A stretch of 64,000 nucleotides of DNA from Ilumatobacteraceae bacterium (GCA_044344715.1 JBIJCI010000001.1:13713-77712), one strand, 5' to 3'. Shown: positions 2,816 through 63,116, counted from the first letter of the stretch. Notes: generated from the sequence alone by a model not told the origin. Numbers and translations: made by a program.

Positions 2816-3659
2816 GCGACGAGGTGTCCCATCGACGCCCGCCCATCGCCATGATCTCCCCGTAGAAGTCGTTGACGATCGACGCGACCGGCAACTCGAC
2901 GCCGAGTCGGCGAGCCTCCTCGAGGCAGATCGCAAGGTCCTTGCGCATCCACTCGACGGCGAATCCGAAGTCGAACTCGTTGCGCACCATCGTCTTCGAA
3001 CGGTTCGACATCTGCCACGAACCTGCGGCACCCTGCGAGATGACCTCCACCAACTCGTCGGGGTTGAGTCCCGCGGCGAGCGCCAACGTGAGACCCTCGC
3101 TCAAACCCTGCACCACCCCGGCGATGCAGATCTGGTTGACCATCTTCGCGAGTTGACCGGAGCCTGCATTGCCGAGTCGCCTGCAGACCTTGGCATACCC
3201 CATGAGCACCGGGTACGCGCGGTCGAACACCTCCTGATCGTCGGCGCCGCACATCACCGAGAGCTGTCCATTCTCGGCACCGGCTTGTCCGCCCGACACC
3301 GGTGCGTCAACGAACCCGACACCCCGCTTGGCACACTGACCCGCCAGCTCGCGTGCCAATGTCGCCGATGCAGTGGTGTGATCGACGAGGATGCCGCCGG
3401 TCGACAGTCCGGCGAGCACGCCGTCATCGCCGAGCACCACCGAGCGGACGTCGTCGTCGTTGCCCACGCACACCATGACCATGTCGGCGTCGGCGGCGGC
3501 TTCGCGGGGGGTTGCCGCGGCCCCACCTCCGTGTGCCTGTACCCACTCGGCGGCCCGGGCGGCGGTGCGGTTGTAGACGGTGACCTCGTGGCCCTTCGCT
3601 GCGAGATGCCGCGCCATCGGGCCACCCATCACCCCCAGACCGACGAAGCCGATCCTCAT
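2772..3659 (-). CDS. NAD(P)-dependent 3-hydroxyisobutyrate / beta-hydroxyacid dehydrogenase family oxidoreductase
   Basis: N-terminal MRIGFVGLGVMGGPMARHL dinucleotide fold; DAPVSGG and GSGQLAKMVNQ motifs of the HIBADH family. It overlaps the P450 3' end convergently by 44 nt. Confidence 0.85.
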   Translation of the reverse strand: MRIGFVGLGVMGGPMARHLAAKGHEVTVYNRTAARAAEWVQAHGGGAAATPREAAADADMVMVCVGNDDDVRSVVLGDDGVLAGLSTGGILVDHTTASATLARELAGQCAKRGVGFVDAPVSGGQAGAENGQLSVMCGADDQEVFDRAYPVLMGYAKVCRRLGNAGSGQLAKMVNQICIAGVVQGLSEGLTLALAAGLNPDELVEVISQGAAGSWQMSNRSKTMVRNEFDFGFAVEWMRKDLAICLEEARRLGVELPVASIVNDFYGEIMAMGGRRWDTSSLIARLRAPGDRPRG

Positions 3660-4456
3660 CGGAACGCCGGACCTTCTGGCGTGACGTAGGCCGAGGTGAT
3701 GCCGCCGTCGATGACGAGGCTCTGACCCGTCATCCAGCTGCTCTCGTTCGACGCAAGGAAGAGTGCACCGTTGACGATTTCGTGCGGCTCGCCGAACCGC
3801 CCCATCGGGATGTGCACCAGACGACGCTCACGCTTGGCATCGTCGCTCAGGAACTTTGCCAGCAGCGGCGTCATCACCGGGCCGGGGCACAATGCATTGG
3901 CCCGCAACCCACGCCGGGCGTAGATCGCCGCGGTTTCCCGTGTGAATGCGAGCACCGCACCCTTCGACGCCGTGTAGGCGACCTGCGGTGTCGCCGCACC
4001 GAGGTGCGCCACGAAGGATGCGACGTTGACGATCGACGACGACTCCCGGCACCGGCCCGCGGATTCGAGCAGGTGCGGAATCGCGTGCCGACAGGCGAAC
4101 ATCACGCCCTTCACGTTGATGTCGATCGTCCGGTTGATCACGTCGTCGGGCGTGTTCTCCGGGTCGTCGTCGGCTGCCAGCATCACCCCGGCGTTGTTGT
4201 ACAACACGTGCAAGTCGCCGAAGGTACCGACGGCGAAGTCGATGGCCCCGCGAACCGAGGCGTCGTCGCTCACATCGCACCGGACCGCGGCGGCGGTCCC
4301 GCCGGATCGGGCGATCGATTGCAGCGTCTCCGTGGCGTCGTCGACGTCGGCGATCACCACCCGTGCCCCTTCGGCGGCGAATCGTTCGGCCCCCACACGA
4401 CCCAGGCCGCTCGCGGCACCGGTGATGAGGGCTACTTTTCCGGCTAGGCGTGGCAT
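3656..4456 (-). CDS. SDR family oxidoreductase
   Basis: GKVALITGAASGLG, NNAG and YTASKGAV (YxxxK) motifs. The stop overlaps the start of the downstream dehydrogenase by 4 nt. Confidence 0.9.
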   Translation of the reverse strand: MPRLAGKVALITGAASGLGRVGAERFAAEGARVVIADVDDATETLQSIARSGGTAAAVRCDVSDDASVRGAIDFAVGTFGDLHVLYNNAGVMLAADDDPENTPDDVINRTIDINVKGVMFACRHAIPHLLESAGRCRESSSIVNVASFVAHLGAATPQVAYTASKGAVLAFTRETAAIYARRGLRANALCPGPVMTPLLAKFLSDDAKRERRLVHIPMGRFGEPHEIVNGALFLASNESSWMTGQSLVIDGGITSAYVTPEGPAFR

Positions 4457-4473: not shown

Positions 4474-5898
4474 TCAGGCTCGCTCAAAGTAGCGCAGGCG
4501 TTCCCAATCGGTGACCGTCTGGTTGAAGGTCGACCATTCATGCCTGGCCATGTTGAGCAGGTGGTGGTGCACGTCATCGCCGAAGCACTCGCGGGCGATG
4601 GCGCTGCGTTCCCACAGGTCGGCTGCCTCGGCCAACGATGTCGCGATACGGGGCAGGTTGCCGGCTTCGTACCCGTTGCCGGCGTACGGTTCGCCCAGTT
4701 CGAGGCCGTGGCGGATTCCGTAGAGCCCCGCGGCAATGGTTCCGGCAAAGGCGAGGTACGAGTTGGCATCCGCACCGGGGATCCGGCACTCCACCCGTGT
4801 CGAAGATCCGTGTCCCACCACGCGGTACCCGAGCGTGCGATTGTCGACTCCCCATGCCACGGCGGTCGGCGCCCACGATCCGGGTTGGAAGCGTTTGTAA
4901 CTGTTCACCGTCGGCCCCCAGAGGATGCCGAAGTCCCGCGCAGCAGCCAACTGTCCGGCGAGGTACATGCGGAAGTGCGCGGTGAGCTGCGGGTCCTCGT
5001 TGCCGTGGGAATGTCCGGCGTCGAATGCCGAGCCGCGAATCGACCCCTCGCCGAGGTGCCAGAGGCTCGAGTGCACGTGGCACGACGACCCCGTTTCCGC
5101 GAAGTCGTACTTGGCCATGAAGGTCACGCTCCGGCCGAGGGCGGCCGCGATTTCCTTGGCGGCGGTCTTGTAGACGACGTTGCAATCGGCCATGTCGACG
5201 GCGCGGGCGTACGCGAGGTTGAGTTCGTGCTGCCCACGACCGGCCTCACCCTTGGAGAACTCGACGGGAATTCCCGCAGCTTCGAGACCGCGGCGAATCT
5301 CGCCGAGGACGTACTCGTCACGGGTCGTCTGGACGATCTGGTAGTCCTCCATGAACGGCGAGTGCGGCATCGGCTCGCGGTACCCGCGGGAGTGGAGCCG
5401 CTCGTAGGAATCGCGGAACAGGTAGAACTCGATCTCGCTACCGATCATCGGCTCGAGGTTCATCCGCCGCGCCGCCGCAACCTGATCGCGCAGCACCTGC
5501 CGCGGCGCAACACCGATGGGCTCACCGGTCGACACCGAGAACACGTCGCAGAGCACGAGTGCGGTCCTCGGCACCCACGGCGTGACGAAGATCGTGCCGA
5601 AGTCGGCGCGGGCCAGCATGTCGCCGTACCCGAGGTCGTACGACGCGAACTCGTAGCCGGGTACGGCCACATCGTCGAAGTCGGTGGCGATGAGGTAGTC
5701 GCAATTCTCCGTGCCGTGCTCGGCCACGTGGTCGAGGAAGTACCGGCCGGTGGTTCGCTTACCAACGAGCCGACCCTGGAGATCGGGGAATGCCATCACT
5801 ACGGTGTCGATTGCACCACGCTCGATCAACCCGACGAGCTCGTCGAATGACGGACGCTTCGTGCCCCCAGCCGAGTAACCGGACGAGGAGGCGGCCAC
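4474..5898 (-). CDS. Glutamine synthetase family protein (GlnA-like, probable gamma-glutamyl-amine synthetase)
   Basis: 474 aa with a GS catalytic-domain signature (KGEAGRGQHELNL, VDNRT, RVECRIPGADANSYL). Its length and sequence resemble actinobacterial GlnA3/GlnA4/PuuA-like paralogues more than GSI. Confidence 0.8.
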   Translation of the reverse strand: MAASSSGYSAGGTKRPSFDELVGLIERGAIDTVVMAFPDLQGRLVGKRTTGRYFLDHVAEHGTENCDYLIATDFDDVAVPGYEFASYDLGYGDMLARADFGTIFVTPWVPRTALVLCDVFSVSTGEPIGVAPRQVLRDQVAAARRMNLEPMIGSEIEFYLFRDSYERLHSRGYREPMPHSPFMEDYQIVQTTRDEYVLGEIRRGLEAAGIPVEFSKGEAGRGQHELNLAYARAVDMADCNVVYKTAAKEIAAALGRSVTFMAKYDFAETGSSCHVHSSLWHLGEGSIRGSAFDAGHSHGNEDPQLTAHFRMYLAGQLAAARDFGILWGPTVNSYKRFQPGSWAPTAVAWGVDNRTLGYRVVGHGSSTRVECRIPGADANSYLAFAGTIAAGLYGIRHGLELGEPYAGNGYEAGNLPRIATSLAEAADLWERSAIARECFGDDVHHHLLNMARHEWSTFNQTVTDWERLRYFERA

Positions 5899-11831: not shown

Positions 11832-14212
11832 TCCTCGAGCGTCATGAGCACCTCGCGGGGCTTCGAGCCTTCGCTCGGGCCGACGATGCCACGCTGTTCG
11901 AGGAGGTCCATGAGCCGTCCCGCGCGGGCGAATCCGACCTTCAACTTGCGCTGCAGCATGGACGTGGAGCCCAGTTGCGTTCGCACGATGAGGTCGATCG
12001 CGTGCTTCAACAACTCGTCGTCATCCTCGTCGCCCGTGGAACCACCCGGCAGATCGGCGGCAGCATCGCCCGTTCCCCCGCCCTCGATTCCCGACACGTA
12101 CGCAACCTCGGGGGCCTGGCGCTTCCAGTGCGACACGATGTTGCGCACCTCGTTCTCGCCGACCCAGGCTGACTGCACGCGCTGGGCGACACTGGTGTTG
12201 CCCGGGAGCATGAGCAGGTCGCCCTTGCCGACGAGCTTTTCCGCACCGGGTTGGTCGAGGATCACGCGACTATCGGTGAGGCTGGACACCGCGAAGGCCA
12301 TGCGTGCCGGAATGTTGGCCTTGATCACTCCGGTGATGACGTTGACGCTCGGTCGCTGCGTCGCCACGATCAGGTGGATACCGACGGCGCGGGCCTTCTG
12401 AGCGATTCGGGTGATGCACTCCTCCACGTCGCGCGCCGCCACCATCATCAGGTCGTTCAGCTCGTCCACCACGACCACGATGAACGGCATACGGTCGAAC
12501 TTCTTCGTCGCGGCGGCCGCGGTGTCGTCACCGGTGTTGAGCTCGCCGCGGTCGTACGCCGCGTTGTAGCCGGTGATGTCGCGGAAACCCGCCTCGACGA
12601 GCACGTCGTAGCGCCGCTCCATCTCCTTCACCGCCCACCCGAGCGCGTTGGCCGCCTTCTTGGGCACCGTGACGGGCTGGGTGAGGAGGTGCGGTAATCC
12701 GCCGTACTGCCCCATCTCGACCTGCTTGGGATCGATGAGGATGAGTCGCACCTGATCGGGCGTGGTGCGCATCAGCAACGTGGTGATGATGCAGTTGAGC
12801 ACGCTCGACTTGCCGGCACCGGTGGCACCCGCGATGAGCAGGTGCGGCGTGGTGGAGATGTTGAGGAACACCGGCCGTCCGGCGATGTCCTTGCCGACGC
12901 CCACCTCGAGCGGGTGCTGCGCCGACTTCGACTCGGGTGCAGCGAGCAGGTCGCCGAGGGACACGAGATCGCGGGCGTCGTTCGGCACCTCGATACCGAT
13001 CGCCGAGCGTCCCGGGATCGGCGCGAGGATTCGCACGTCAATCGCCGCCATCGCATACGCGATGTCCTTCGACAGCGAGGTGAGCCGGGCAACCTTCACC
13101 CCCTCCCCGAGTTCGAGCTCGTAGCGCGTGACGGTCGGCCCACGGGTGAACCCGACGAGCTTGGTGTCGACGCCGTGCGAGGCGAGTGCCGAAACGAGTG
13201 CCTCCCCGCGCTTGGCGACCGCATCCTCGTTGGCCCGCTTGTTGCTGGTGAGGGCGAGCAGATCGAGCGGAGGCAGCGACCACGAGGAGGGTTGGGCACC
13301 CGGACCCAACGGCATCTCTTGTTGTTCGCCGCGTACCGGCTTGGCACCGGGATCGGGCTTCGGCTTGACGACGCGAAGTCGTGGCTTTCGCTTGCGTGGC
13401 TGCGCCTCTGGCTCGGCGTCCCGGGCGTCGGCATCGGTATCGGCGTCGGCAAAGTCGCCGTCGACGCTGTGGTCGTAGACGTCGTCGCGCCCACGGGCCT
13501 CCTCGTGCTCGCGGCGCGCCGTGTCGAGGTCGTCGACTCCAGCCACGACACCGGTGTCGTGCTCCACGTCGTACGGCTCGGCTCCTCCCTCGCGGTAACC
13601 GCGAGCCGCATCGTCCAACCGCTTGACGAGCGCACGTGCCGATTTCGCCAGGTCGGGCAGCGACTTGCCGGTTGCCAGCATCAAGCCCAGCACGATGGTG
13701 GGGGCGAGAATCACCATGGCGCCGACCGGCGAGAGCGACGACTCGAGCGGCTCGCCCACCAGCCAGCCGAGCCAGCCGCCCGCGCTCTCGAGGGCACCGA
13801 GCGATACCTGCATGTCGTTTGCGGCAAGGAAGACGTGCAGGACGCCGAGCAATGCCACCGACACGACCAACCACCCGAAGGTGAGCCGAACGCGATGCTC
13901 GATGCTCACGCGCTTGAGCAGCGCCACCCCGAGACCGAGGCACACGACCGGCAGTGCGAACCGGCCGAGGCCCACCGTCCAGCGCAACCCGGTATCGACC
14001 CCACGCCCCACCGGACCGGCGACGCTCACGTACACCGACAACGACATGAGGACGCCGACGACGACGAAGAGCATCCCGAGCAACTCCCCCGCCCGTTCGG
14101 CGAGGATCGGTCTCAGGACCGGGTCGCCCTGCACCACCCGGAACGACACCGAGGGGTCGACCTCGTCGTGGGTACGAGGTGCAACGCTGCGTTTACGGGC
14201 CTTTTCGGGCAT
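11807..14212 (-). CDS. ftsK: DNA translocase FtsK
   Basis: 801 aa with N-terminal TM segments, an acidic/Pro-rich linker, the motor domain with Walker A GATGAGKS, and the C-terminal gamma winged-helix domain (LQRKLKVGFARAGRLMDLLE). Confidence 0.95.
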   Translation of the reverse strand: MPEKARKRSVAPRTHDEVDPSVSFRVVQGDPVLRPILAERAGELLGMLFVVVGVLMSLSVYVSVAGPVGRGVDTGLRWTVGLGRFALPVVCLGLGVALLKRVSIEHRVRLTFGWLVVSVALLGVLHVFLAANDMQVSLGALESAGGWLGWLVGEPLESSLSPVGAMVILAPTIVLGLMLATGKSLPDLAKSARALVKRLDDAARGYREGGAEPYDVEHDTGVVAGVDDLDTARREHEEARGRDDVYDHSVDGDFADADTDADARDAEPEAQPRKRKPRLRVVKPKPDPGAKPVRGEQQEMPLGPGAQPSSWSLPPLDLLALTSNKRANEDAVAKRGEALVSALASHGVDTKLVGFTRGPTVTRYELELGEGVKVARLTSLSKDIAYAMAAIDVRILAPIPGRSAIGIEVPNDARDLVSLGDLLAAPESKSAQHPLEVGVGKDIAGRPVFLNISTTPHLLIAGATGAGKSSVLNCIITTLLMRTTPDQVRLILIDPKQVEMGQYGGLPHLLTQPVTVPKKAANALGWAVKEMERRYDVLVEAGFRDITGYNAAYDRGELNTGDDTAAAATKKFDRMPFIVVVVDELNDLMMVAARDVEECITRIAQKARAVGIHLIVATQRPSVNVITGVIKANIPARMAFAVSSLTDSRVILDQPGAEKLVGKGDLLMLPGNTSVAQRVQSAWVGENEVRNIVSHWKRQAPEVAYVSGIEGGGTGDAAADLPGGSTGDEDDDELLKHAIDLIVRTQLGSTSMLQRKLKVGFARAGRLMDLLEQRGIVGPSEGSKPREVLMTLEEWEKLQGG

Positions 14213-57155: not shown

Positions 57156-60100
57156 TCAACGGAAGTCGCGCGAGGCCATGCGGATCGGCACCCGCAATTC
57201 GGTGAAACGCTCCCCGATCACGTTCACCACGCCCTCGGCATACTGCACGCGGCCGTGAACGAGCAATGCGCTCGCCCGACGCAACACCTCTGCGTGGCGC
57301 ACCCAGCAGCCGCGGGAGCAGAGCACGTTCATCAGGCCGGTCTCATCCTCGAGGCTGAAGAATGTGGTGCCCTTGGCCGTCATCGGTCGCTGGCGGTGCG
57401 TCACCACACCGGCGATGAGCACCCGTGACTCGGGTTCGCGTCCGGCGAGTTCGGTCAGTTCGTGCGCGGTGATCACCCCGAGTTCGCGCAACGACCGGCG
57501 CAGGAAGGTGGTGGGGTGACCCTCGGGTGACACACCCGTTGCCCAGAGATCGGCGACCGCCTCCTCCACCGGCTGCATGCCGGGTAGGTGCGGCGTCGAC
57601 ATGGTGGTAATGCCCTGCAGCCGATCGGGCGACGATTCGACCATGGCCCCCGCGTTCCACAGCGCGGTACGTCGCGACATATCGAACGACTCGCCGAATA
57701 CACCGGCAGTGGCGAGCGCCTCGAGTTGCTTCACCGAGATACCCGGCACACGACGCACGAGATCCTCGACGTCGTTGAACGGTCGCGCCGCTTCGATACG
57801 GGCCGCGAGTTCGGCGCCGATACCCCGTACCGAACCGATGCCGAGCCGCACGGCAAGACCACCGGTCGACTGCGCGTCGGGCTCCAGCCAGGCACCCGCG
57901 CGCGAGGCGTTGATGTCGGGCGTTCGGACCACCACCCCGTGACGTCGAGCGTCCTGCACGAGCGTATGCGGGGACCAGAACCCCATCGGCTGCGAGTTGA
58001 TGAGCGAGGCACAAAAGATCGCCGGCTCGTGCAGTTTGATCCACGCCGACGAGTACACGAGGTAGGCGAAACTCACGGAGTGGCTCTCGGGAAACCCGTA
58101 GTTGGCGAACGCTGCCATCTTGTCGTAGATCTCGTCGGCAACACCGCCGACGATGCCGCGCTGCGCCATGCCCTCGTACAACCGGTCGCGCAAGCGGATC
58201 ATGCGCGTCCTCGAGCGCTTCGATCCCATCGCCTGACGTAGTTCGTCGGCCTGTGACGGCGTGAAACCGGCGACGTCGATTGCCATCTGCATGAGCTGTT
58301 CCTGGAAGAGCGGCACGCCGAGCGTCTTGCCGAGGCTGTTCTCGAGCAACGGATGCAGGTAGGTGACGGGCTCCTGGCCGTTGCGGCGGCGGATGTACGG
58401 GTGCACCGAACCACCCTGGATCGGACCGGGACGGATGAGCGCCACCTCGACGACGAGGTCGTAGAAACGTCGGGGCTTCAAGCGCGGCAGTGTCGACATC
58501 TGCGCGCGGGACTCCACCTGGAACACTCCGACGCTGTCGGCTCGGCACAGCATGGCGTACACCTCGTCCTCCTGCGGAATCTCCGCCAGGTCGATACGCC
58601 GACCACGGAACTCGGCGACGTAGTCGATCGCCCGGTGCAGCGCCGAGAGCATGCCGAGCCCGAGCAGGTCGAACTTGACGAGGTTCACCGCCGCACAGTC
58701 GTCCTTGTCCCACTGCAGCACACTGCGGCCCGGCATCGTCGCCCACTCCACCGGACACACCTCGCTGACCGGACGATCACAGATCACCATGCCACCGGAG
58801 TGAATACCTAGGTGGCGCGGTGCATCCTGCACGCGCTGCGCCAACTGCACCACCAGGTCGGGCACGGTTACCTCGCACTGCTCCCTGACCGGGCTCCACG
58901 AGTCGAAACGGCGGCTGAAGGCGTCCTGCTCCGCGGCCGAGTACCCGAGTGCGCGCGCCATATCGCGCACCGCCGACCGGGCGCGGTAGGTGATCACGTT
59001 GGCAACCTGGGCGGCCCGCAGGCGTCCGTAGCGCCCGTACACGTACTGGATGACCTCCTCGCGACGGTCGCTCTCGATGTCGAGGTCGATATCGGGCGGT
59101 CCGTCGCGCTCGGCGGACAGGAAACGCTCGAACAACAATCCGAGCGAGACGGCGTCGGCCTTGGTGATGCCGAGCGAGAAGCACACCGCACTATTGGCCG
59201 CGCTTCCGCGACCTTGACAGAGGATGTCGTTGCGCTCGCAGAACTGCACGATGTCCCACACGACGAGGAAGTAACCGGGAAACCCGAGCCGCTCGATCAC
59301 GCCGAGTTCGTGGTCGATGGTGCGCCAGGCGCGCGAGCGCAGCGACAAGTCCTCGTGCGCGCCGAGCGGACGCTCGCCGTAGCGACGACGCCCGCCGACT
59401 TCGACGAGTTGCCGCAGGTACTGAATCTCGCTCGAACCATCGGGGCACGGAAACGGCGGCAGGTTGGGGGCGATGAGCGACAGGTCGAATGCGGCCGAAC
59501 GGGCGATGTCGACGGCGCGATCGACCACGCCGGGATACCGGGCGAAACGGTGGTGTTGCTCCGCCGCACTACGCAGGCACGCACCCGCCGCGGGTGGAAG
59601 ACGTGCGTCGAGGTCGTCGAGACTGCACCGGTTGCGCACCGCGGCAAGTGCGCACGCCAGCACGTGGTCACCCGGTGCCGCATACGACACGTCGTTGGTG
59701 GCCACCACGCCGACCTCGCACCGCGCGGCGAGCGCAGCGAGTGCATCGTTGCGCCATACGTCGAGCGGATCACCGTGGTTCCACACCTCGACGAGCACCC
59801 GATCACGACCGAATGCGTCGATCATCAGCCGGAGCGACTCCTGAGCCGACGACGGATCGACGCGCAGGCGGCGGGTGAGTGGTCCGTCGTGCGTGCCGGT
59901 GAGCACGAAACACTCCCCCTTCACGTGCCGCCCCAACGACTCGAGGTCGAACACCGGACGCGACTTCGACCCGCGCATCTGCCCCTCGGTGAGCGCACGC
60001 GACAGTGCGCCGTATCCCGCGGGTCCGTCGGCGATGATCACGATGTCCCCGAACGCGTCGGTACCACCGCACGACACCTCGGCGCCGAACACGGTGCGAA

Positions 60101-60284
60101 CCCCGGTTCCACGAGCCGCCTGGGCGAAACGAACCACCCCGTAGAAACCGTGTCGATCGGTGAGTGCGAGCGCACTCAGCCCGAGGTCGTCGGCAACCTC
60201 GATCAGGTGTTCGGGGGACGATGCGCCGTGCAGGAACGAGAACTGCGACCGGCAATGCAATTCGGCGTAGTTACGCGACGACAC
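57156..60284 (-). CDS. dnaE2: Error-prone DNA polymerase DnaE2 (ImuC)
   Basis: 1042 aa. The PHP-domain start YAELHCRSQFSFLHGAS, the Pol III alpha core and an OB-fold C-terminus. It has a GTG start, lies downstream of imuA'-imuB and is preceded by a LexA box. Confidence 0.93.
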   Translation of the reverse strand: MSSRNYAELHCRSQFSFLHGASSPEHLIEVADDLGLSALALTDRHGFYGVVRFAQAARGTGVRTVFGAEVSCGGTDAFGDIVIIADGPAGYGALSRALTEGQMRGSKSRPVFDLESLGRHVKGECFVLTGTHDGPLTRRLRVDPSSAQESLRLMIDAFGRDRVLVEVWNHGDPLDVWRNDALAALAARCEVGVVATNDVSYAAPGDHVLACALAAVRNRCSLDDLDARLPPAAGACLRSAAEQHHRFARYPGVVDRAVDIARSAAFDLSLIAPNLPPFPCPDGSSEIQYLRQLVEVGGRRRYGERPLGAHEDLSLRSRAWRTIDHELGVIERLGFPGYFLVVWDIVQFCERNDILCQGRGSAANSAVCFSLGITKADAVSLGLLFERFLSAERDGPPDIDLDIESDRREEVIQYVYGRYGRLRAAQVANVITYRARSAVRDMARALGYSAAEQDAFSRRFDSWSPVREQCEVTVPDLVVQLAQRVQDAPRHLGIHSGGMVICDRPVSEVCPVEWATMPGRSVLQWDKDDCAAVNLVKFDLLGLGMLSALHRAIDYVAEFRGRRIDLAEIPQEDEVYAMLCRADSVGVFQVESRAQMSTLPRLKPRRFYDLVVEVALIRPGPIQGGSVHPYIRRRNGQEPVTYLHPLLENSLGKTLGVPLFQEQLMQMAIDVAGFTPSQADELRQAMGSKRSRTRMIRLRDRLYEGMAQRGIVGGVADEIYDKMAAFANYGFPESHSVSFAYLVYSSAWIKLHEPAIFCASLINSQPMGFWSPHTLVQDARRHGVVVRTPDINASRAGAWLEPDAQSTGGLAVRLGIGSVRGIGAELAARIEAARPFNDVEDLVRRVPGISVKQLEALATAGVFGESFDMSRRTALWNAGAMVESSPDRLQGITTMSTPHLPGMQPVEEAVADLWATGVSPEGHPTTFLRRSLRELGVITAHELTELAGREPESRVLIAGVVTHRQRPMTAKGTTFFSLEDETGLMNVLCSRGCWVRHAEVLRRASALLVHGRVQYAEGVVNVIGERFTELRVPIRMASRDFR

Positions 60285-60848
60285 TCACTCACGATAGCGA
60301 ACATACGTTCGTAGGGCGGCCGTAAGCCCGCCCCGCAAGCCGGGATCGGCAACGGCGAACGCCTCGTCGGGCGCGAACCACCGGGCGTCGGGACTCTCCC
60401 CCTCTCCCGGACGCGGATCATCGTCACCGGCCAGCAACACGTACCGCACGTCGAAGTGCCGGTGCCCGCGGGGACCGGGATGCACGTCGAGGTGGATGAG
60501 TTGCGGACCGTCGTGCGGATGCGCCACGTGGAGGCCGAGCTCCTCCTGCGACTCGCGCACCGCCGCGGCGGCCGGATCCTCGTCGTGCTCGATATGACCG
60601 CCGGGCTGCAACCACAGACCAAGCCGCTTGTGCACGTGCAGGGCGACACCCCGACGACCGACGACTATCGCCGAGGCCGTGACGTGACGTACGTCGGCAT
60701 GTTCGCTGAGTGGAGCCGTCAGTTGCGGCACCACGTCGAGGAACTCGGCGATGGAGTCGCGTTCCCGGTCGTCGACCGGTGTCGCTGCACGGAAATGCGC
60801 GCACAACGATTCGACGAGTCGGACATCGTGCGGCGAGACGGCGGACAT
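60285..60848 (-). CDS. NUDIX hydrolase
   Basis: The NUDIX box GHIEHDEDPAAAAVRESQEELGL fits GX5EX7REUXEEXGU. ATG at 60848 is the likely start. The TGA stop abuts the dnaE2 GTG. Confidence 0.8.
   Translation of the reverse strand: MSAVSPHDVRLVESLCAHFRAATPVDDRERDSIAEFLDVVPQLTAPLSEHADVRHVTASAIVVGRRGVALHVHKRLGLWLQPGGHIEHDEDPAAAAVRESQEELGLHVAHPHDGPQLIHLDVHPGPRGHRHFDVRYVLLAGDDDPRPGEGESPDARWFAPDEAFAVADPGLRGGLTAALRTYVRYRE
60298..60311 (-). promoter_or_regulatory. LexA (SOS/Cheo-type) box upstream of dnaE2, followed by a TAnnnT -10-like hexamer
   Basis: The coding-strand sequence is CGAACGTATGTTCG (GAAC-N4-GTTC palindrome), then C, TATCGT (60296-60291), 6 nt and the GTG start at 60284. It lies inside the last 9 codons of the NUDIX ORF. 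Confidence 0.7.
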
Positions 60849-60876
60849 CGCAGACACGGTAGTGCTCGCTCGCGCA

Positions 60877-62456
60877 TCAGGCGTACAGCGCGGCGAGGCG
60901 CCAGACGCCACGCTCGAGCACGGCAATCGCGGCAACGACCGGACCACCCCGGCTCGTGCAGCGCATCAGCACCTGCAACCGCACCATACGGCGTGCACGA
61001 CGCGGATCCCACCACCGTTCCTCCACCGGCCACGGCCCCGCCCATGCCACAACGTCGTAGCGACGCGCACCAATGCACACCACCGAGGGACCACCGCTCA
61101 TCGCATGCCGTGCGTCGACCGCGATGCAACGCCCGCCTGCATCGAGCACCCCGATTTCGGGGGCATCGGACGACGAATCGAACACCAACGTCGGTGCGGG
61201 TGACGGCAACGCACCGCTCCATTCGCCCGCTGCAGCATCGAACACGGCGCCCCTCGTGCGCCGCTCCACATCGACCGCGTCGCTGCGCACGAACTCGAAC
61301 GATCGTGCCGGGTCGCGGTCGCCGCGCCACGCCGGCACGGTGACCGACCCTGCTCCGATCATGTCGGCGATCCGACGCATGGCGCGCTGGGCGTGCCGAT
61401 CGCCGTCACGCTCGCCACCCCACAGTGCCGCCTGGCGTCCCGCATCGACGACGACCTGCTCGGGCGACAACCGAACCGAAACGACACCGCTGGTCGGCGC
61501 AGCATGGGCGATCCATGCGTCGAGTTGCCAACGCAGGCTCTCGACGATTGCACGATCGGTGAAACCATCGGATCGGTACCACATCCGTTCGGTGCGCTCA
61601 CCGTGGTCGGACTCGACGAGGATGTGCAGGCGGACCACCGCCAACCCGAGTGCGCGCAGATGATCCACCAATCCAGCGGAGAGTCCGGTGGCCGCCGACA
61701 CCACCGCATCGCGCGATTCGACCGGTTCGTCGAACTGCAGGAGTCGTACCCGTTCGGGGGTTGGTGCCACGACGAGCGGCGGGTGGCGGTCGAGCCCACG
61801 CGACAAACGCGAGAGATCACGACCGAAGGCACCGAACCGTGCGATCACATCCGCTTCCGACAACGCGGCGACGTCACCGAAGCGGTAGAGACCGAGTCGC
61901 TCCAAGAGCGACACGATGTCGCGGTACGACGCAACGTTTCCGACACCGGGAACTCCCGCCCCCACCGTGCCGATCACCCCGACGCAGTCGACCAGAGCGC
62001 GCACCGACGAGGTGGCGAGCCAGTGTGCCGATGCCGCAACGGGCACGACGAGGGGCTCACCCGACCGGATGGCATGGTGCGACGCAATGCCCGCGGCGAG
62101 GCGACCATCGGCGATACCGACACCGAATACTGCCAGTGACTCGTCGACCACCAATCCCCGCGCGGCGGCAATCATCGTGCGCACGGCATCGTGCACCGCC
62201 GTATGCATGATGCCGGCGAGCCGGTCGTCGCCACCGACATAACGCGACGGGCCGCGCGTGGCAACGATGATGACCCCCGGTGAGGCAACCTCGACGAGTG
62301 GCGCATATGCGACGACCGCCTGCACGATCGTCTCGAAGGCACTGCGTGCACTGCAACCGAGCGCTGCCGAATACTCCGACCAGCGGGGAAAGTGGACGAC
62401 TACGACGCGGGTAGGGGAAAGTGGACGACTACGACGCGGGTTGGGGCATCGGGCAT
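60877..62456 (-). CDS. imuB: ImuB (Y-family polymerase-like mutasome subunit); reading frame interrupted near its 5' end by a 29-bp tandem duplication
   Basis: The body (…VVVVHFPRWSEY…GVIIVATRG…) is ImuB-like. ATG 62456 reads MPDAPTRVVVVHFP and then terminates at TAG 62402-62400. Removing one 29-nt repeat copy restores a 516-codon ORF running to stop 60877. As sequenced, the only long in-frame option is GTG 62508, which adds an Arg/Cys/Pro-rich extension. Confidence 0.75.
62385..62442. repeat. 29-bp tandem direct duplication (2 copies)
   Basis: 62385-62412 is identical to 62414-62441 (ggggaaagtggacgactacgacgcgggt). The 29th base differs (a62413, t62442). gggg follows both copies, giving microhomology at the junction. 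Confidence 0.95.
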
Positions 62457-63070
62457 GGCAGCGTGACCGTCCCTTCGCGCGGCGACGGACAACGTCGACC
62501 GTCGACACGCATCCGCACCGTGCGCTGCGTGATGTGCGACCCGCCGTGTTCGATGCCCGACCACGACACCGTGTCGGCATGCACGTCGAGATCGGATGCG
62601 AACACGCTCGCCGAACCGAGCGCCGGCAACGCAGGAAGATCGACCGCGATGAGCACCGACTGTCGGGCGAGGATGCGCGACTGCAAACGCCGTGCATCGT
62701 GCGCACTCAACGTGGGGGGTGCGGCAACGATGAGCACGTCGAACCCCTCGACCAGTGCGGCGGCCGTCGTGACCCATTCGCGGCTGGCGCGGGGAGGTTG
62801 CACGAGCACGATGCGCTCGATGGCGACACCCGCCTCGATCGCCGCGGTGACACCGAGGTTGGGCACACCCACGACCGCCAACCACGAGCCGGAACGGGTG
62901 GCGGCGGCGGAGAGGGCGAGCGCCGTGGTCAATGCGGCATCACCCGTGCAGCCGACGGTGCGGCCACGGACGAGACCGCCGTCGACGAAGAGCGAGGCCA
63001 ATGGTGCCGTAACGGGTAAGGGGGCACGCACGATCGGGGTGCCGAGGCGGGTGCGGAGTTCGGTAGTCAC
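62429..63070 (-). CDS. imuA': ImuA' (RecA/SulA-like mutasome accessory protein)
   Basis: 213 aa. GCTGDAALTTALALSAAATRSGSWLAVVGVPNLG is typical of ImuA'. It is the first gene of the cassette, has a GTG start and has a LexA box 14 nt upstream. Confidence 0.8.
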   Translation of the reverse strand: MTTELRTRLGTPIVRAPLPVTAPLASLFVDGGLVRGRTVGCTGDAALTTALALSAAATRSGSWLAVVGVPNLGVTAAIEAGVAIERIVLVQPPRASREWVTTAAALVEGFDVLIVAAPPTLSAHDARRLQSRILARQSVLIAVDLPALPALGSASVFASDLDVHADTVSWSGIEHGGSHITQRTVRMRVDGRRCPSPREGTVTLPCPMPQPAS

Positions 63071-63083
63071 CCCCTCACCATAG

Positions 63084-63097
63084 CGAACAGGTGTTCG
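63084..63097 (-). promoter_or_regulatory. LexA (SOS/Cheo-type) box upstream of imuA', followed by a TAnnnT -10-like hexamer
   Basis: The coding-strand sequence is CGAACACCTGTTCG, then C, TATGGT (63082-63077), 6 nt and GTG at 63070. A CATAAT element also lies just upstream at 63108-63103. Confidence 0.7.
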
Positions 63098-63116
63098 CCC
63101 CCATTATGGGAAGGGA

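What the first reader, a model, noticed from the sequence alone, without database searches (positions are those of the whole stretch)
57156..63108. SOS mutasome cassette with an embedded NUDIX gene and two copies of a LexA-box/-10/GTG module that predicts leaderless transcripts
The gene order on the minus strand is imuA', imuB, NUDIX hydrolase, dnaE2. The GTG starts of both imuA' (63070) and dnaE2 (60284) are preceded by the same architecture on the coding strand. It consists of CGAAC-N4-GTTCG (CGAACACCTGTTCG and CGAACGTATGTTCG), one C, a TAnnnT hexamer (TATGGT and TATCGT), exactly 6 nt, then GTG. A -10 element 6-7 nt from the start codon is the geometry of leaderless actinobacterial mRNAs. 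Both units therefore look like LexA-repressed leaderless transcripts, and the promoter module appears to have been duplicated. The dnaE2 copy lies inside the last 9 codons of the NUDIX ORF, so NUDIX would be co-transcribed with imuA'-imuB. The NUDIX ORF has a near-canonical NUDIX box (GHIEHDEDPAAAAVRESQEELGL). If it is a nucleotide-pool sanitiser, placing it inside an error-prone polymerase operon would shape the mutational spectrum during SOS. I do not recall this pairing being described for canonical imuA'BC cassettes.
Basis: partly seen in the sequence, partly recalled or inferred. Interest (0 to 1): 0.6.

Follow-up and report, generated by a model that had tools for sequence, protein, structure and literature searches.

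The report
SOS mutasome locus with resident NUDIX gene
A freshwater actinobacterium (Ilumatobacteraceae) carries the usual DNA-damage-inducible error-prone polymerase genes behind two LexA-controlled promoters that sit directly on the start codons, and the NUDIX gene wedged between them has its own LexA-free promoter, so it is probably a long-resident neighbour and not a new part of the mutagenesis machine.

Summary
Both imuA' (GTG 63070) and dnaE2 (GTG 60284) are preceded by CGAAC-N4-GTTCG, one C, TAnnnT, 6 nt, then GTG. This layout is more than chance. In 219 box occurrences from 142 related Acidimicrobiia loci, 196 show box, TAnnnT and a start codon; 191 of those have a 1-nt gap and 166 a 6-nt spacer. 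In this genome TAnnnT peaks sharply 6-8 nt before start codons. LexA-repressed leaderless transcripts are therefore well supported, though no start site could be mapped. The architecture is class-wide and old, so a recent duplication is not supported.

The NUDIX reading changes. NUDIX starts at ATG 60848 and has its own conserved box-less module (CAC-TACCGT-N7-ATG), present in all 23 genomes of the genus. Related modules precede many orthologues across Ilumatobacteraceae. In larger genomes an opposite-strand response-regulator gene separates NUDIX from imuB. The NUDIX position between imuB and dnaE2 is family-wide (about 70 of 80 species loci). It is absent from 40 other Acidimicrobiia genomes. 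The protein resembles Ap(n)A hydrolases more than MutT.

Verdict: a gene-order variant of a known system, with modest interest.

The parts
63084..63097 (-). LexA (SOS) box CGAACACCTGTTCG of the imuA' promoter
   Evidence: Conserved in all genus genomes. The same motif stands at lexA and recA of this genome.
63077..63082 (-). -10 hexamer TATGGT of imuA'. It lies 1 nt after the box and 6 nt before GTG 63070.
   Evidence: Genome-wide leaderless spacing peak.
62429..63070 (-). imuA' (213 aa), predicted to be leaderless
   Evidence: NF058630 at 105 bits, cut-off 65. The start codon switches GTG/ATG at the same position in relatives.
62385..62446 (.). 29-bp tandem duplication (2.1 copies) at the imuA'/imuB overlap. 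It puts the native imuB ATG (62456) out of frame.
   Evidence: Absent from the 16 same-genus genomes aligned.
60877..62508 (-). imuB. The native start is ATG 62456, now frameshifted. The nearest in-frame start is GTG 62508. The longest ORF runs to 62706.
   Evidence: Weak DinB-like hits. 60-70% identity to the imuB of genus relatives. Junction analysis.
60856..60864 (-). Box-less promoter-like element CAC-TACCGT, 7 nt before the NUDIX ATG
   Evidence: Conserved as CAC-TAC[CG][GT]T-N6-8-ATG/GTG in all 23 genus genomes, although the spacer has many indels. Related TAnnnT-N6-9-start elements precede family orthologues.
60285..60848 (-). NUDIX hydrolase (187 aa): two N-terminal helices, a Nudix fold and a C-terminal helix
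   Evidence: PF00293 at 8.7e-16. Alignment with an invariant Nudix box and a His-rich motif. AF2 model with pLDDT 95.5. Foldseek top hit Ndx1 Ap6A hydrolase.
60298..60311 (-). LexA (SOS) box CGAACGTATGTTCG of the dnaE2 promoter, inside the last codons of NUDIX
60291..60296 (-). -10 hexamer TATCGT of dnaE2. It lies 1 nt after the box and 6 nt before GTG 60284.
57156..60284 (-). dnaE2 (1042 aa), predicted to be leaderless. It lacks the ~65-aa N-terminal extension (MGFNNP...) seen in most relatives.
   Evidence: NF004225 at 1382 bits. N-terminal comparison.

Best explanation
The locus is an ordinary actinobacterial SOS mutasome (imuA'-imuB plus dnaE2) in a small-genome freshwater member of the Ilumatobacteraceae (Acidimicrobiia). 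It consists of three adjacent transcription units, each with leaderless geometry.

1. P(imuA'). A LexA operator fills the spacer just upstream of the -10 (box, 1 nt, TATGGT). Transcription would start at or next to the GTG 6 nt further on, giving a leaderless imuA'-imuB mRNA. LexA bound there occludes RNA polymerase until RecA-stimulated self-cleavage of LexA.
2. P(nudix). CAC-TACCGT-N7-ATG, with no LexA operator, would give a constitutive leaderless NUDIX mRNA.
3. P(dnaE2). The same operator/-10/N6/GTG design lies inside the last 8 codons of NUDIX and would give a leaderless dnaE2 mRNA.

The operator/-10/start design is an old architecture found across the class at both genes. It is not a recent duplication.

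NUDIX is an Ap(n)A-hydrolase-like Nudix enzyme of unknown substrate. It has sat between imuB and dnaE2 throughout the Ilumatobacteraceae. In small genomes it is packed against both neighbours. After DNA damage it may get extra transcription by read-through from P(imuA'), because the 20-nt gap holds no terminator, but it does not depend on that.

Shown: the sequence elements, their conservation, the gene identities, the synteny and the genome-wide leaderless signal. Inferred: LexA binding, the transcription start sites, constitutive NUDIX expression and the substrate class.
For: - Elements at exact coordinates.
- Both modules and the synteny cimA-imuA'-imuB-NUDIX-dnaE2 occur in all 22 genus genomes fetched. 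In a divergent subclade the imuA' start becomes ATG at the same 6-nt distance, and the dnaE2 module is intergenic.
- Of 219 box occurrences in 142 loci, 196 have box-(0-2 nt)-[T/G]AnnnT-N5-10-start opening a long ORF. Of these, 191 have a 1-nt gap and 166 a 6-nt spacer.
- The same design is seen in other families and orders of the class.
- TAnnnT frequency before candidate starts of 1217 long ORFs is 80, 63 and 34 at spacings 6, 7 and 8, against about 5-10 elsewhere.
- The same box stands at lexA (two boxes, divergent from a LysM gene as in the Mycobacterium tuberculosis Rv2719c-lexA pair, by my recollection) and at recA.
- A leaderless, LexA-regulated lexA mRNA was shown experimentally in M. 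tuberculosis (PMC2897130).
- NUDIX's own module is conserved in 23 of 23 genus genomes amid variable spacers. In 59 of 78 species loci a TAnnnT lies 5-9 nt before an in-frame NUDIX start, against 12 of 78 at control spacings.
- In large Ilumatobacteraceae genomes an opposite-strand OmpR-type regulator gene separates imuB from NUDIX, and no box precedes NUDIX.
- The downstream neighbour DUF3039 is just as conserved (54 of 80), so conserved synteny here is not specific to NUDIX.
- Nudix classification.
Against: - No transcription start site, LexA binding or expression data could be obtained.
- A conserved TAnnnT near a start codon is strong but indirect evidence for a promoter.
- NUDIX stays between imuB and dnaE2 in about 70 of 80 species loci, down to 49% protein identity and across genome sizes from 1.2 to 5.5 Mb. 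No Nudix gene lies there in 40 other Acidimicrobiia genomes. Selection for a functional link could also explain this.
- The gap between imuB and NUDIX holds no terminator, so SOS-induced co-transcription is likely to occur as well.
- The NUDIX tree does not show whether the compact or the regulator-containing arrangement is ancestral.
Confidence: 0.6

Rival explanations
1. First reader's model. NUDIX is a working part of the SOS mutasome operon. It is co-transcribed with imuA'-imuB from the LexA-controlled promoter. It cleans the nucleotide pool (for example 8-oxo-dGTP) and so shapes what ImuB/DnaE2 incorporate.
For: - Tight packing: a 20-29-nt gap after imuB with no terminator.
- The imuB-NUDIX-dnaE2 order is kept in about 70 of 80 species loci. 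It is confined to one family and absent from 40 other Acidimicrobiia genomes.
- Mycobacterial MutT1 appears among the structural neighbours, at rank 14 with 22% identity.
Against: - NUDIX has its own conserved box-less -10/start module.
- In large family members an opposite-strand gene separates it from imuB, and no LexA box precedes it.
- MutT models score 24-27 bits against cut-offs of 98-148.
- The best sequence and fold matches are Ap6A/Ap4A hydrolases and uncharacterised Nudix proteins.
- The flanking DUF3039 gene is equally syntenic.
Confidence: 0.2
2. LexA controls NUDIX and dnaE2 through the operator inside the NUDIX 3' end. Transcripts from the constitutive NUDIX promoter are blocked by LexA 8 codons before the stop. 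Full-length NUDIX mRNA, and TGA|GTG-coupled translation of dnaE2 from that mRNA, would then appear only after LexA cleavage.
For: - The operator lies within the last 8 codons of NUDIX, and the stop TGA abuts the dnaE2 GTG in the main clade of the genus.
- There is no terminator between the genes.
Against: - In the divergent subclade and in many other genera NUDIX ends 30-300 nt before the box, so the overlap is not a conserved requirement.
- Repressor roadblocks are usually leaky (general knowledge).
- No expression data exist.
Confidence: 0.07
3. The two operator/-10/GTG modules of this genus arose by a recent duplication of one module, for example when dnaE2 lost its N-terminal extension and acquired a copy of the imuA' promoter.
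For: - After the box, 13 of 16 positions agree between the two modules (CTATGGTGAGGGGGTG against CTATCGTGAGTGAGTG).
- dnaE2 of this genus lacks the ~65-aa N-terminal extension of most relatives, so its 5' end was remodelled.
Against: - Both genes carry the module across the whole class.
- The box spacers differ (ACCT against GTAT), and the flanks share nothing.
- A simple in-frame loss of the extension would keep the old promoter.
- In other genera the two modules are no more alike than function requires.
Confidence: 0.08

Closest known systems
Mycobacterial split mutasome: imuA'-imuB (Rv3395c-Rv3394c) and dnaE2 (Rv3370c), both LexA-regulated
   Same: The same three proteins are present (ImuA' model NF058630, a Y-family-like ImuB, DnaE2 model NF004225). 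They form two separately LexA-boxed units. The operator is of the actinobacterial CGAAC-N4-GTTCG type.
   Different: Here the two units are only 0.6 kb apart with a NUDIX gene between them. By my recollection, the mycobacterial units are about 25 genes apart and have no Nudix gene. This DnaE2 lacks the N-terminal extension.
Contiguous imuA-imuB-dnaE2 (imuABC) SOS cassette with one LexA box (Caulobacter type; also seen here in one Acidimicrobiales family)
   Same: Same gene order and the same SOS control logic. Family f19 of the same order has contiguous imuA'-imuB-dnaE2 with a single box (L081-83 and L086).
   Different: The window has a second operator/promoter for dnaE2 and an intervening gene with its own promoter.
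Leaderless, LexA-regulated lexA mRNA of M. tuberculosis (PMC2897130)
   Same: A LexA-controlled promoter whose transcript starts at the start codon.
   Different: That case was mapped experimentally. Here the start sites are inferred from geometry and conservation only.
Thermus thermophilus Ndx1 (Ap6A hydrolase, PDB 1vc8) and uncharacterised Nudix proteins 3f6a, 3fcm and 1jrk
   Same: These are the best fold and sequence matches. Foldseek gives 1.9e-10, target TM 0.87, rmsd 1.6 A and 31% identity. phmmer gives 4e-10 to 3f6a. The motif H-x-HK-x-LG-x-WL-x-PGGH-[IV]-E is shared.
   Different: The window protein has two extra N-terminal helices and an invariant His-rich HLDVHPGPRGHxHxD segment. 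Its substrate is unknown.
MutT / MutT1 8-oxo-(d)GTP diphosphatases
   Same: Nudix fold and Nudix box. M. smegmatis MutT1 is a lower-ranked structural neighbour.
   Different: It scores far below the MutT equivalog cut-offs, and only the Nudix box aligns.

Membership tests
Actinobacterial imuA'-imuB / dnaE2 SOS mutasome | ImuA' (Rv3395c-type) protein | tested here: met
   NF058630 at 105 bits, cut-off 65. Pfam MT3502_N is recorded on a close relative's product.
Actinobacterial imuA'-imuB / dnaE2 SOS mutasome | ImuB: a Y-family-like protein encoded directly after imuA' | tested here: inconclusive
   Only weak DinB-like hits (32 bits). The position and 60-70% identity to the imuB of genus relatives fit. 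The catalytic-residue status was not examined. The N-terminus is frameshifted by a 29-bp duplication in this assembly.
Actinobacterial imuA'-imuB / dnaE2 SOS mutasome | DnaE2 error-prone C-family polymerase | tested here: met
   NF004225 at 1382.6 bits, cut-off 939, over the full length.
Actinobacterial imuA'-imuB / dnaE2 SOS mutasome | LexA operator in the promoter of each unit | tested here: met
   A perfect CGAAC-N4-GTTCG stands at both units. The same motif stands at lexA and recA of this genome. It is conserved in relatives.
Actinobacterial imuA'-imuB / dnaE2 SOS mutasome | Induction by DNA damage; LexA binding | not testable with these tools
Leaderless actinobacterial mRNA | -10 hexamer TAnnnT ending about 6-8 nt before the start codon, with no room for a Shine-Dalgarno site | tested here: met
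   N6 at imuA' and dnaE2, N7 at NUDIX. Genome-wide peak at spacings 6-8.
Leaderless actinobacterial mRNA | Mapped transcription start at the first base of the start codon | not testable with these tools
   No RNA data could be reached.
MutT-type 8-oxo-dGTP diphosphatase | Full-length match to MutT equivalog models above the cut-off | tested here: not met
   TIGR00586 scores 23.8 bits against 97.9, and NF008044 scores 27.1 against 148. Only the Nudix box aligns. PDB 1mut matches at E 0.0096.
MutT-type 8-oxo-dGTP diphosphatase | Nudix box GX5EX7REUXEEXGU | tested here: met
   GHIEHDEDPAAAAVRESQEELGL; the catalytic E, RE and EE residues are invariant in 29 homologues. This feature is shared by all Nudix enzymes.
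LexA regulon (for the NUDIX gene itself) | LexA box in the gene's own promoter region | tested here: not met
   No box lies between imuB and NUDIX in the window, nor upstream of the NUDIX orthologues of large genomes.
Ap(n)A-hydrolase-like Nudix (Ndx1 group) | Closest fold and sequence similarity | tested here: met
   Foldseek rank 1-2 is 1vc8/1vc9 (target TM 0.87, rmsd 1.5-1.6 A, 30-31% identity). Ap4A hydrolases take ranks 7-8 and 13.
Ap(n)A-hydrolase-like Nudix (Ndx1 group) | Hydrolysis of diadenosine polyphosphates | not testable with these tools
   Needs an enzyme assay.

The most novel reading that the evidence does not exclude
NUDIX is functionally wired into the Ilumatobacteraceae mutasome. 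It would be made constitutively from its own leaderless promoter and boosted, or completed, only when LexA leaves the operator that sits in its own last codons. It would hydrolyse a stress nucleotide (Ap(n)A-type alarmone, Np4A RNA cap or damaged dNTP) and so tune ImuB/DnaE2 activity or expression. The TGA|GTG abutment would let dnaE2 also be translated by coupling from NUDIX transcripts. That would make it a family-specific fourth component of the imuA'-imuB-dnaE2 system.
Probability: 0.13. Interest if true: 0.6.

Novelty: new variant of a known kind. Interest (0 to 1): 0.33.

Why it matters
The locus gives a clean comparative picture of how SOS mutagenesis genes are wired in Acidimicrobiia, an abundant and rarely cultured freshwater group. 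A roughly 30-nt integrated unit combines LexA operator, -10 element and start codon. It is kept almost base-for-base in its spacing across a whole class. This unit is useful for annotating start codons and predicting SOS regulons in these genomes.

The NUDIX gene is a caution. A gene embedded in a stress operon for a whole family can still carry its own promoter, so it need not share the operon's regulation or function. If the minority reading is right, Ilumatobacteraceae would have a lineage-specific Nudix partner of the DnaE2 mutasome. That would bear on how damage-induced mutagenesis is restrained.

Tried and rejected
Neither the start sites nor the 29-bp duplication could be checked against reads.
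- An E. coli-type promoter and terminator scan gave 0 promoters and 3 terminator-like sites, none between the genes and at chance level. This is uninformative for -35-less actinobacterial promoters.
- I tried to name the NUDIX function by NCBIfam. All hits fell below their cut-offs. The six other NUDIX paralogues of the genome gave no clear MutT equivalog either, so the question of which Nudix is the MutT stays open.
- A NUDIX protein tree was built to decide whether the compact or the regulator-containing arrangement is ancestral. The deep nodes are unresolved.
- I considered the RecA-independent (PafBC) promoter motif as an alternative regulator of NUDIX. By eye, nothing upstream of NUDIX resembles the motif as I remember it (general knowledge). 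This was not tested formally.
- Literature searches for imuB, dnaE2 and Nudix together found no description of this arrangement.

Full report
**Observation**

On the minus strand the window carries the 3' end of cimA, then imuA' (62429-63070), imuB (stop at 60877), a NUDIX gene (stop at 60285) and dnaE2 (57156-60284). Profile searches confirm the identities:
- ImuA' matches NF058630 at 105 bits (cut-off 65).
- DnaE2 matches NF004225 at 1382.6 bits (cut-off 939).
- NUDIX matches PF00293 at 8.7e-16.
- ImuB gives only weak DinB-like hits, as is usual for this fast-evolving protein.

- imuA': CGAACACCTGTTCG (63097-63084), C, TATGGT, GAGGGG, GTG (63070).
- dnaE2: CGAACGTATGTTCG (60311-60298), C, TATCGT, GAGTGA, GTG (60284).

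The NUDIX stop TGA (60287-60285) abuts the dnaE2 GTG. The window holds only these two CGAAC-N4-GTTCG sites, against 0.3 expected.

**Organism and regulon**

The window is part of a 1.75-Mb assembly of 88 contigs with 65.6% G+C. Record titles of related loci place it in freshwater Ilumatobacteraceae, class Acidimicrobiia.

The genome has nine perfect boxes. Besides the two here, they include:
- a pair of boxes (one perfect, one imperfect) between lexA and a divergent LysM gene; I recall the same arrangement in the mycobacterial Rv2719c-lexA pair;
- one box upstream of recA.

This supports the motif as the LexA operator of this organism. Only the imuA' and dnaE2 sites combine box, 1 nt, TAnnnT, 6 nt and GTG.

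**Is the geometry meaningful?**

Two independent lines say yes.

1. *Genome-wide signal.* I took candidate starts of 1217 long ORFs and counted TAnnnT at each spacing upstream. The counts are 80, 63, 34 and 26 at spacings 6, 7, 8 and 9, against roughly 5-10 at other spacings. Leaderless promoters are therefore a real and frequent feature here.

2. *Comparative evidence.*
   - All 22 same-genus genomes that I fetched keep cimA-imuA'-imuB-NUDIX-dnaE2 and both modules.
   - In a divergent subclade (NUDIX 66% identical) the imuA' start is ATG instead of GTG, at the same 6-nt distance. There the dnaE2 module lies in an intergenic spacer, so the NUDIX reading frame is not what holds it in place.
   - I fetched 5 kb upstream of dnaE2 in 20 other Ilumatobacteraceae, 20 genomes of other families of the order and 20 of other orders of the class. 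I added 80 species loci found with the NUDIX alignment. The same design recurs at both genes.
   - Of 219 box occurrences in 142 loci (some genomes appear twice), 196 have box-(0-2 nt)-[T/G]AnnnT-N5-10-ATG/GTG opening a long ORF. The gap is exactly 1 nt in 191 and the spacer exactly 6 nt in 166.
   - In many genomes outside this genus a TTGnnn lies 3-4 nt before the box. The operator would then fill the spacer between -35 and -10.

A LexA-regulated leaderless mRNA (lexA) has been shown experimentally in M. tuberculosis (PMC2897130). The mechanism is therefore of a known kind.

**Duplication?**

The module is class-wide at both genes. The two copies in the window differ in the box spacer (ACCT against GTAT) and share nothing in their flanks. 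What they do share (C, TAT-GT, GAG-G-) lies in the -10 and discriminator positions.

Family f19 of the same order has contiguous imuA'-imuB-dnaE2 with a single box. Wherever other DNA separates imuB from dnaE2, dnaE2 usually has its own module. I therefore see no support for a recent duplication.

One remodelling event is real. Most relatives' DnaE2 begins MGFNNP... about 65 residues before the PHP domain. In this genus and one other (g18) the protein starts immediately before the PHP domain, with the module moved up against it.

**The NUDIX gene**

*Start and own promoter*
- Its start is ATG 60848, giving 187 aa like most homologues.
- The imuB-NUDIX spacer varies in length and sequence among the 23 genus genomes. 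One block is conserved in all of them: CAC-TAC[CG][GT]T, then 6-8 nt, then ATG or GTG. In the window this is TACCGT 60861-60856, N7, ATG 60848. It is a third leaderless-type module and it has no LexA box.
- TACGGT or TACCGT with N6 before ATG/GTG also precedes NUDIX orthologues in large Ilumatobacteraceae genomes.
- In 59 of 78 species loci a TAnnnT lies 5-9 nt before an in-frame NUDIX start, against 12 of 78 at control spacings.

*Context in larger genomes*
- In the large genomes an OmpR-type response-regulator gene on the opposite strand lies between imuB and NUDIX (Pfam).
- Other genes can lie between NUDIX and dnaE2, for example an EamA transporter.
- No box precedes NUDIX in those genomes. 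There, NUDIX cannot be part of the imuA'-imuB transcript.

*Distribution*
- A Nudix gene lies within 5 kb upstream of dnaE2 in 14-15 of 20 Ilumatobacteraceae genomes. It does so in 0 of 20 genomes of other families of the order and 0 of 20 of other orders of the class.
- About 70 of 80 species loci show the imuB-NUDIX-dnaE2 order.
- Orthologues at 48-63% identity outside the family sit in unrelated contexts, next to RNase II, TyrRS and others.
- The DUF3039 gene downstream of dnaE2 is just as syntenic (54 of 80). cimA is a neighbour only within the genus. Conserved order in this clade is thus not specific to NUDIX.

*What the enzyme is*
- NCBIfam hits are all far below their cut-offs. MutT models score 24-27 bits against 98-148.
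- The best PDB sequence matches are uncharacterised Nudix proteins (3f6a, 1jrk) and T. thermophilus Ndx1, an Ap6A hydrolase.
- A confident AlphaFold model (pLDDT 95.5) has two N-terminal helices, a Nudix fold and a C-terminal helix.
- Foldseek ranks Ndx1 first (target TM 0.87, rmsd 1.6 A, 31% identity). Next come 3fcm, 1k2e/1jrk, 3f6a and Ap4A hydrolases. Mycobacterial MutT1 appears from rank 14.
- The alignment shows an invariant Nudix box and a His-rich HLDVHPGPRGHxHxD segment.
- The genome has seven Nudix genes, and none is a clear MutT equivalog.
- A role as an 8-oxo-dGTP sanitiser is therefore unsupported, though not excluded.

*The C-terminal tail*

In the main clade the C-terminal RTYVRYRE is simply the translation of the LexA box plus the -10. 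Orthologues outside the clade end earlier. The DNA element, not the protein, is the constraint.

**Most likely mechanism**

There are three adjacent leaderless units:
- imuA'-imuB, under LexA;
- NUDIX, from its own LexA-free promoter;
- dnaE2, under LexA.

No terminator-like site lies between the genes. Read-through from the imuA' promoter after damage probably adds NUDIX RNA and perhaps dnaE2 RNA. On such read-through RNA the TGA|GTG abutment would permit coupled translation of dnaE2. These last points are inference.

**Not resolved**
- The NUDIX tree does not show whether the compact or the regulator-containing arrangement is ancestral.
- Literature searches found no description of a Nudix gene in this cassette.
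- Notes by other first-stage readers of this scan report the same compact and regulator-containing arrangements in four other genomes. This agrees with my survey but is not independent proof.

**Verdict**

The LexA/leaderless reading is well supported by comparison. The duplication and pool-sanitiser operon readings are not. The locus is a family-wide gene-order variant of the known split imuA'-imuB/dnaE2 mutasome, with a resident and probably independently expressed Nudix gene.

Noticed in passing
window 62385-62446 (imuA'/imuB junction): A 29-bp tandem duplication (2.1 copies, 96% match) follows the native imuB start ATG 62456. Translation from that ATG now stops after 18 codons. The long imuB frame can only be entered from an upstream in-frame GTG (62508 or further), which overlaps imuA'. 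The 16 same-genus genomes aligned lack the duplication. It may be a real frameshift or variant, or an assembly artefact.
   Followed up: partly
window 60200-60284, compared with L047-L086: DnaE2 of this genus and of genus g18 (L061, L063) lacks the ~65-residue N-terminal extension (MGFNNP...) that most Acidimicrobiia DnaE2 proteins carry before the PHP domain. The LexA/-10 module sits directly before the truncated start.
   Followed up: partly
window 60285-60311: The last eight residues of NUDIX (RTYVRYRE) are the translation of the dnaE2 LexA box plus the -10 element. They are conserved only in the clade where the ORF runs through the operator. Elsewhere NUDIX ends 30-300 nt earlier.
   Followed up: yes
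G000 contig C35, about 13490-13550 (outside the window): lexA and a divergent LysM-domain gene share a region with two LexA boxes. The LysM side has box-G-TATGGT but no start codon at 6-8 nt, so it has a leader. This resembles my recollection of the M. tuberculosis Rv2719c-lexA pair. recA (contig C57, about 16103) has one box and a leader of roughly 130 nt.
   Followed up: partly
L167-L186 and L067-L086 (other Acidimicrobiia): A -35-like TTGnnn lies 3-4 nt upstream of the LexA box in many genomes (for example cttgcggggtCGAAC). The operator would then fill the -35/-10 spacer exactly. The window's genus has lost this TTG at both promoters.
   Followed up: no
L180 (G119) 3508-3722 and 4913-5204: This genome carries two copies of the dnaE2 operator/promoter with near-identical flanks. 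The first is followed by only a short DnaE2 N-terminal fragment (residues 2-44). This is a genuine local duplication of the module in another lineage.
   Followed up: no
window 63071-63116: The whole imuA' promoter and operator are squeezed into a 46-nt gap after the cimA stop (63117). No terminator-like site separates cimA from the box. LexA would also stand in the way of read-through from cimA.
   Followed up: no
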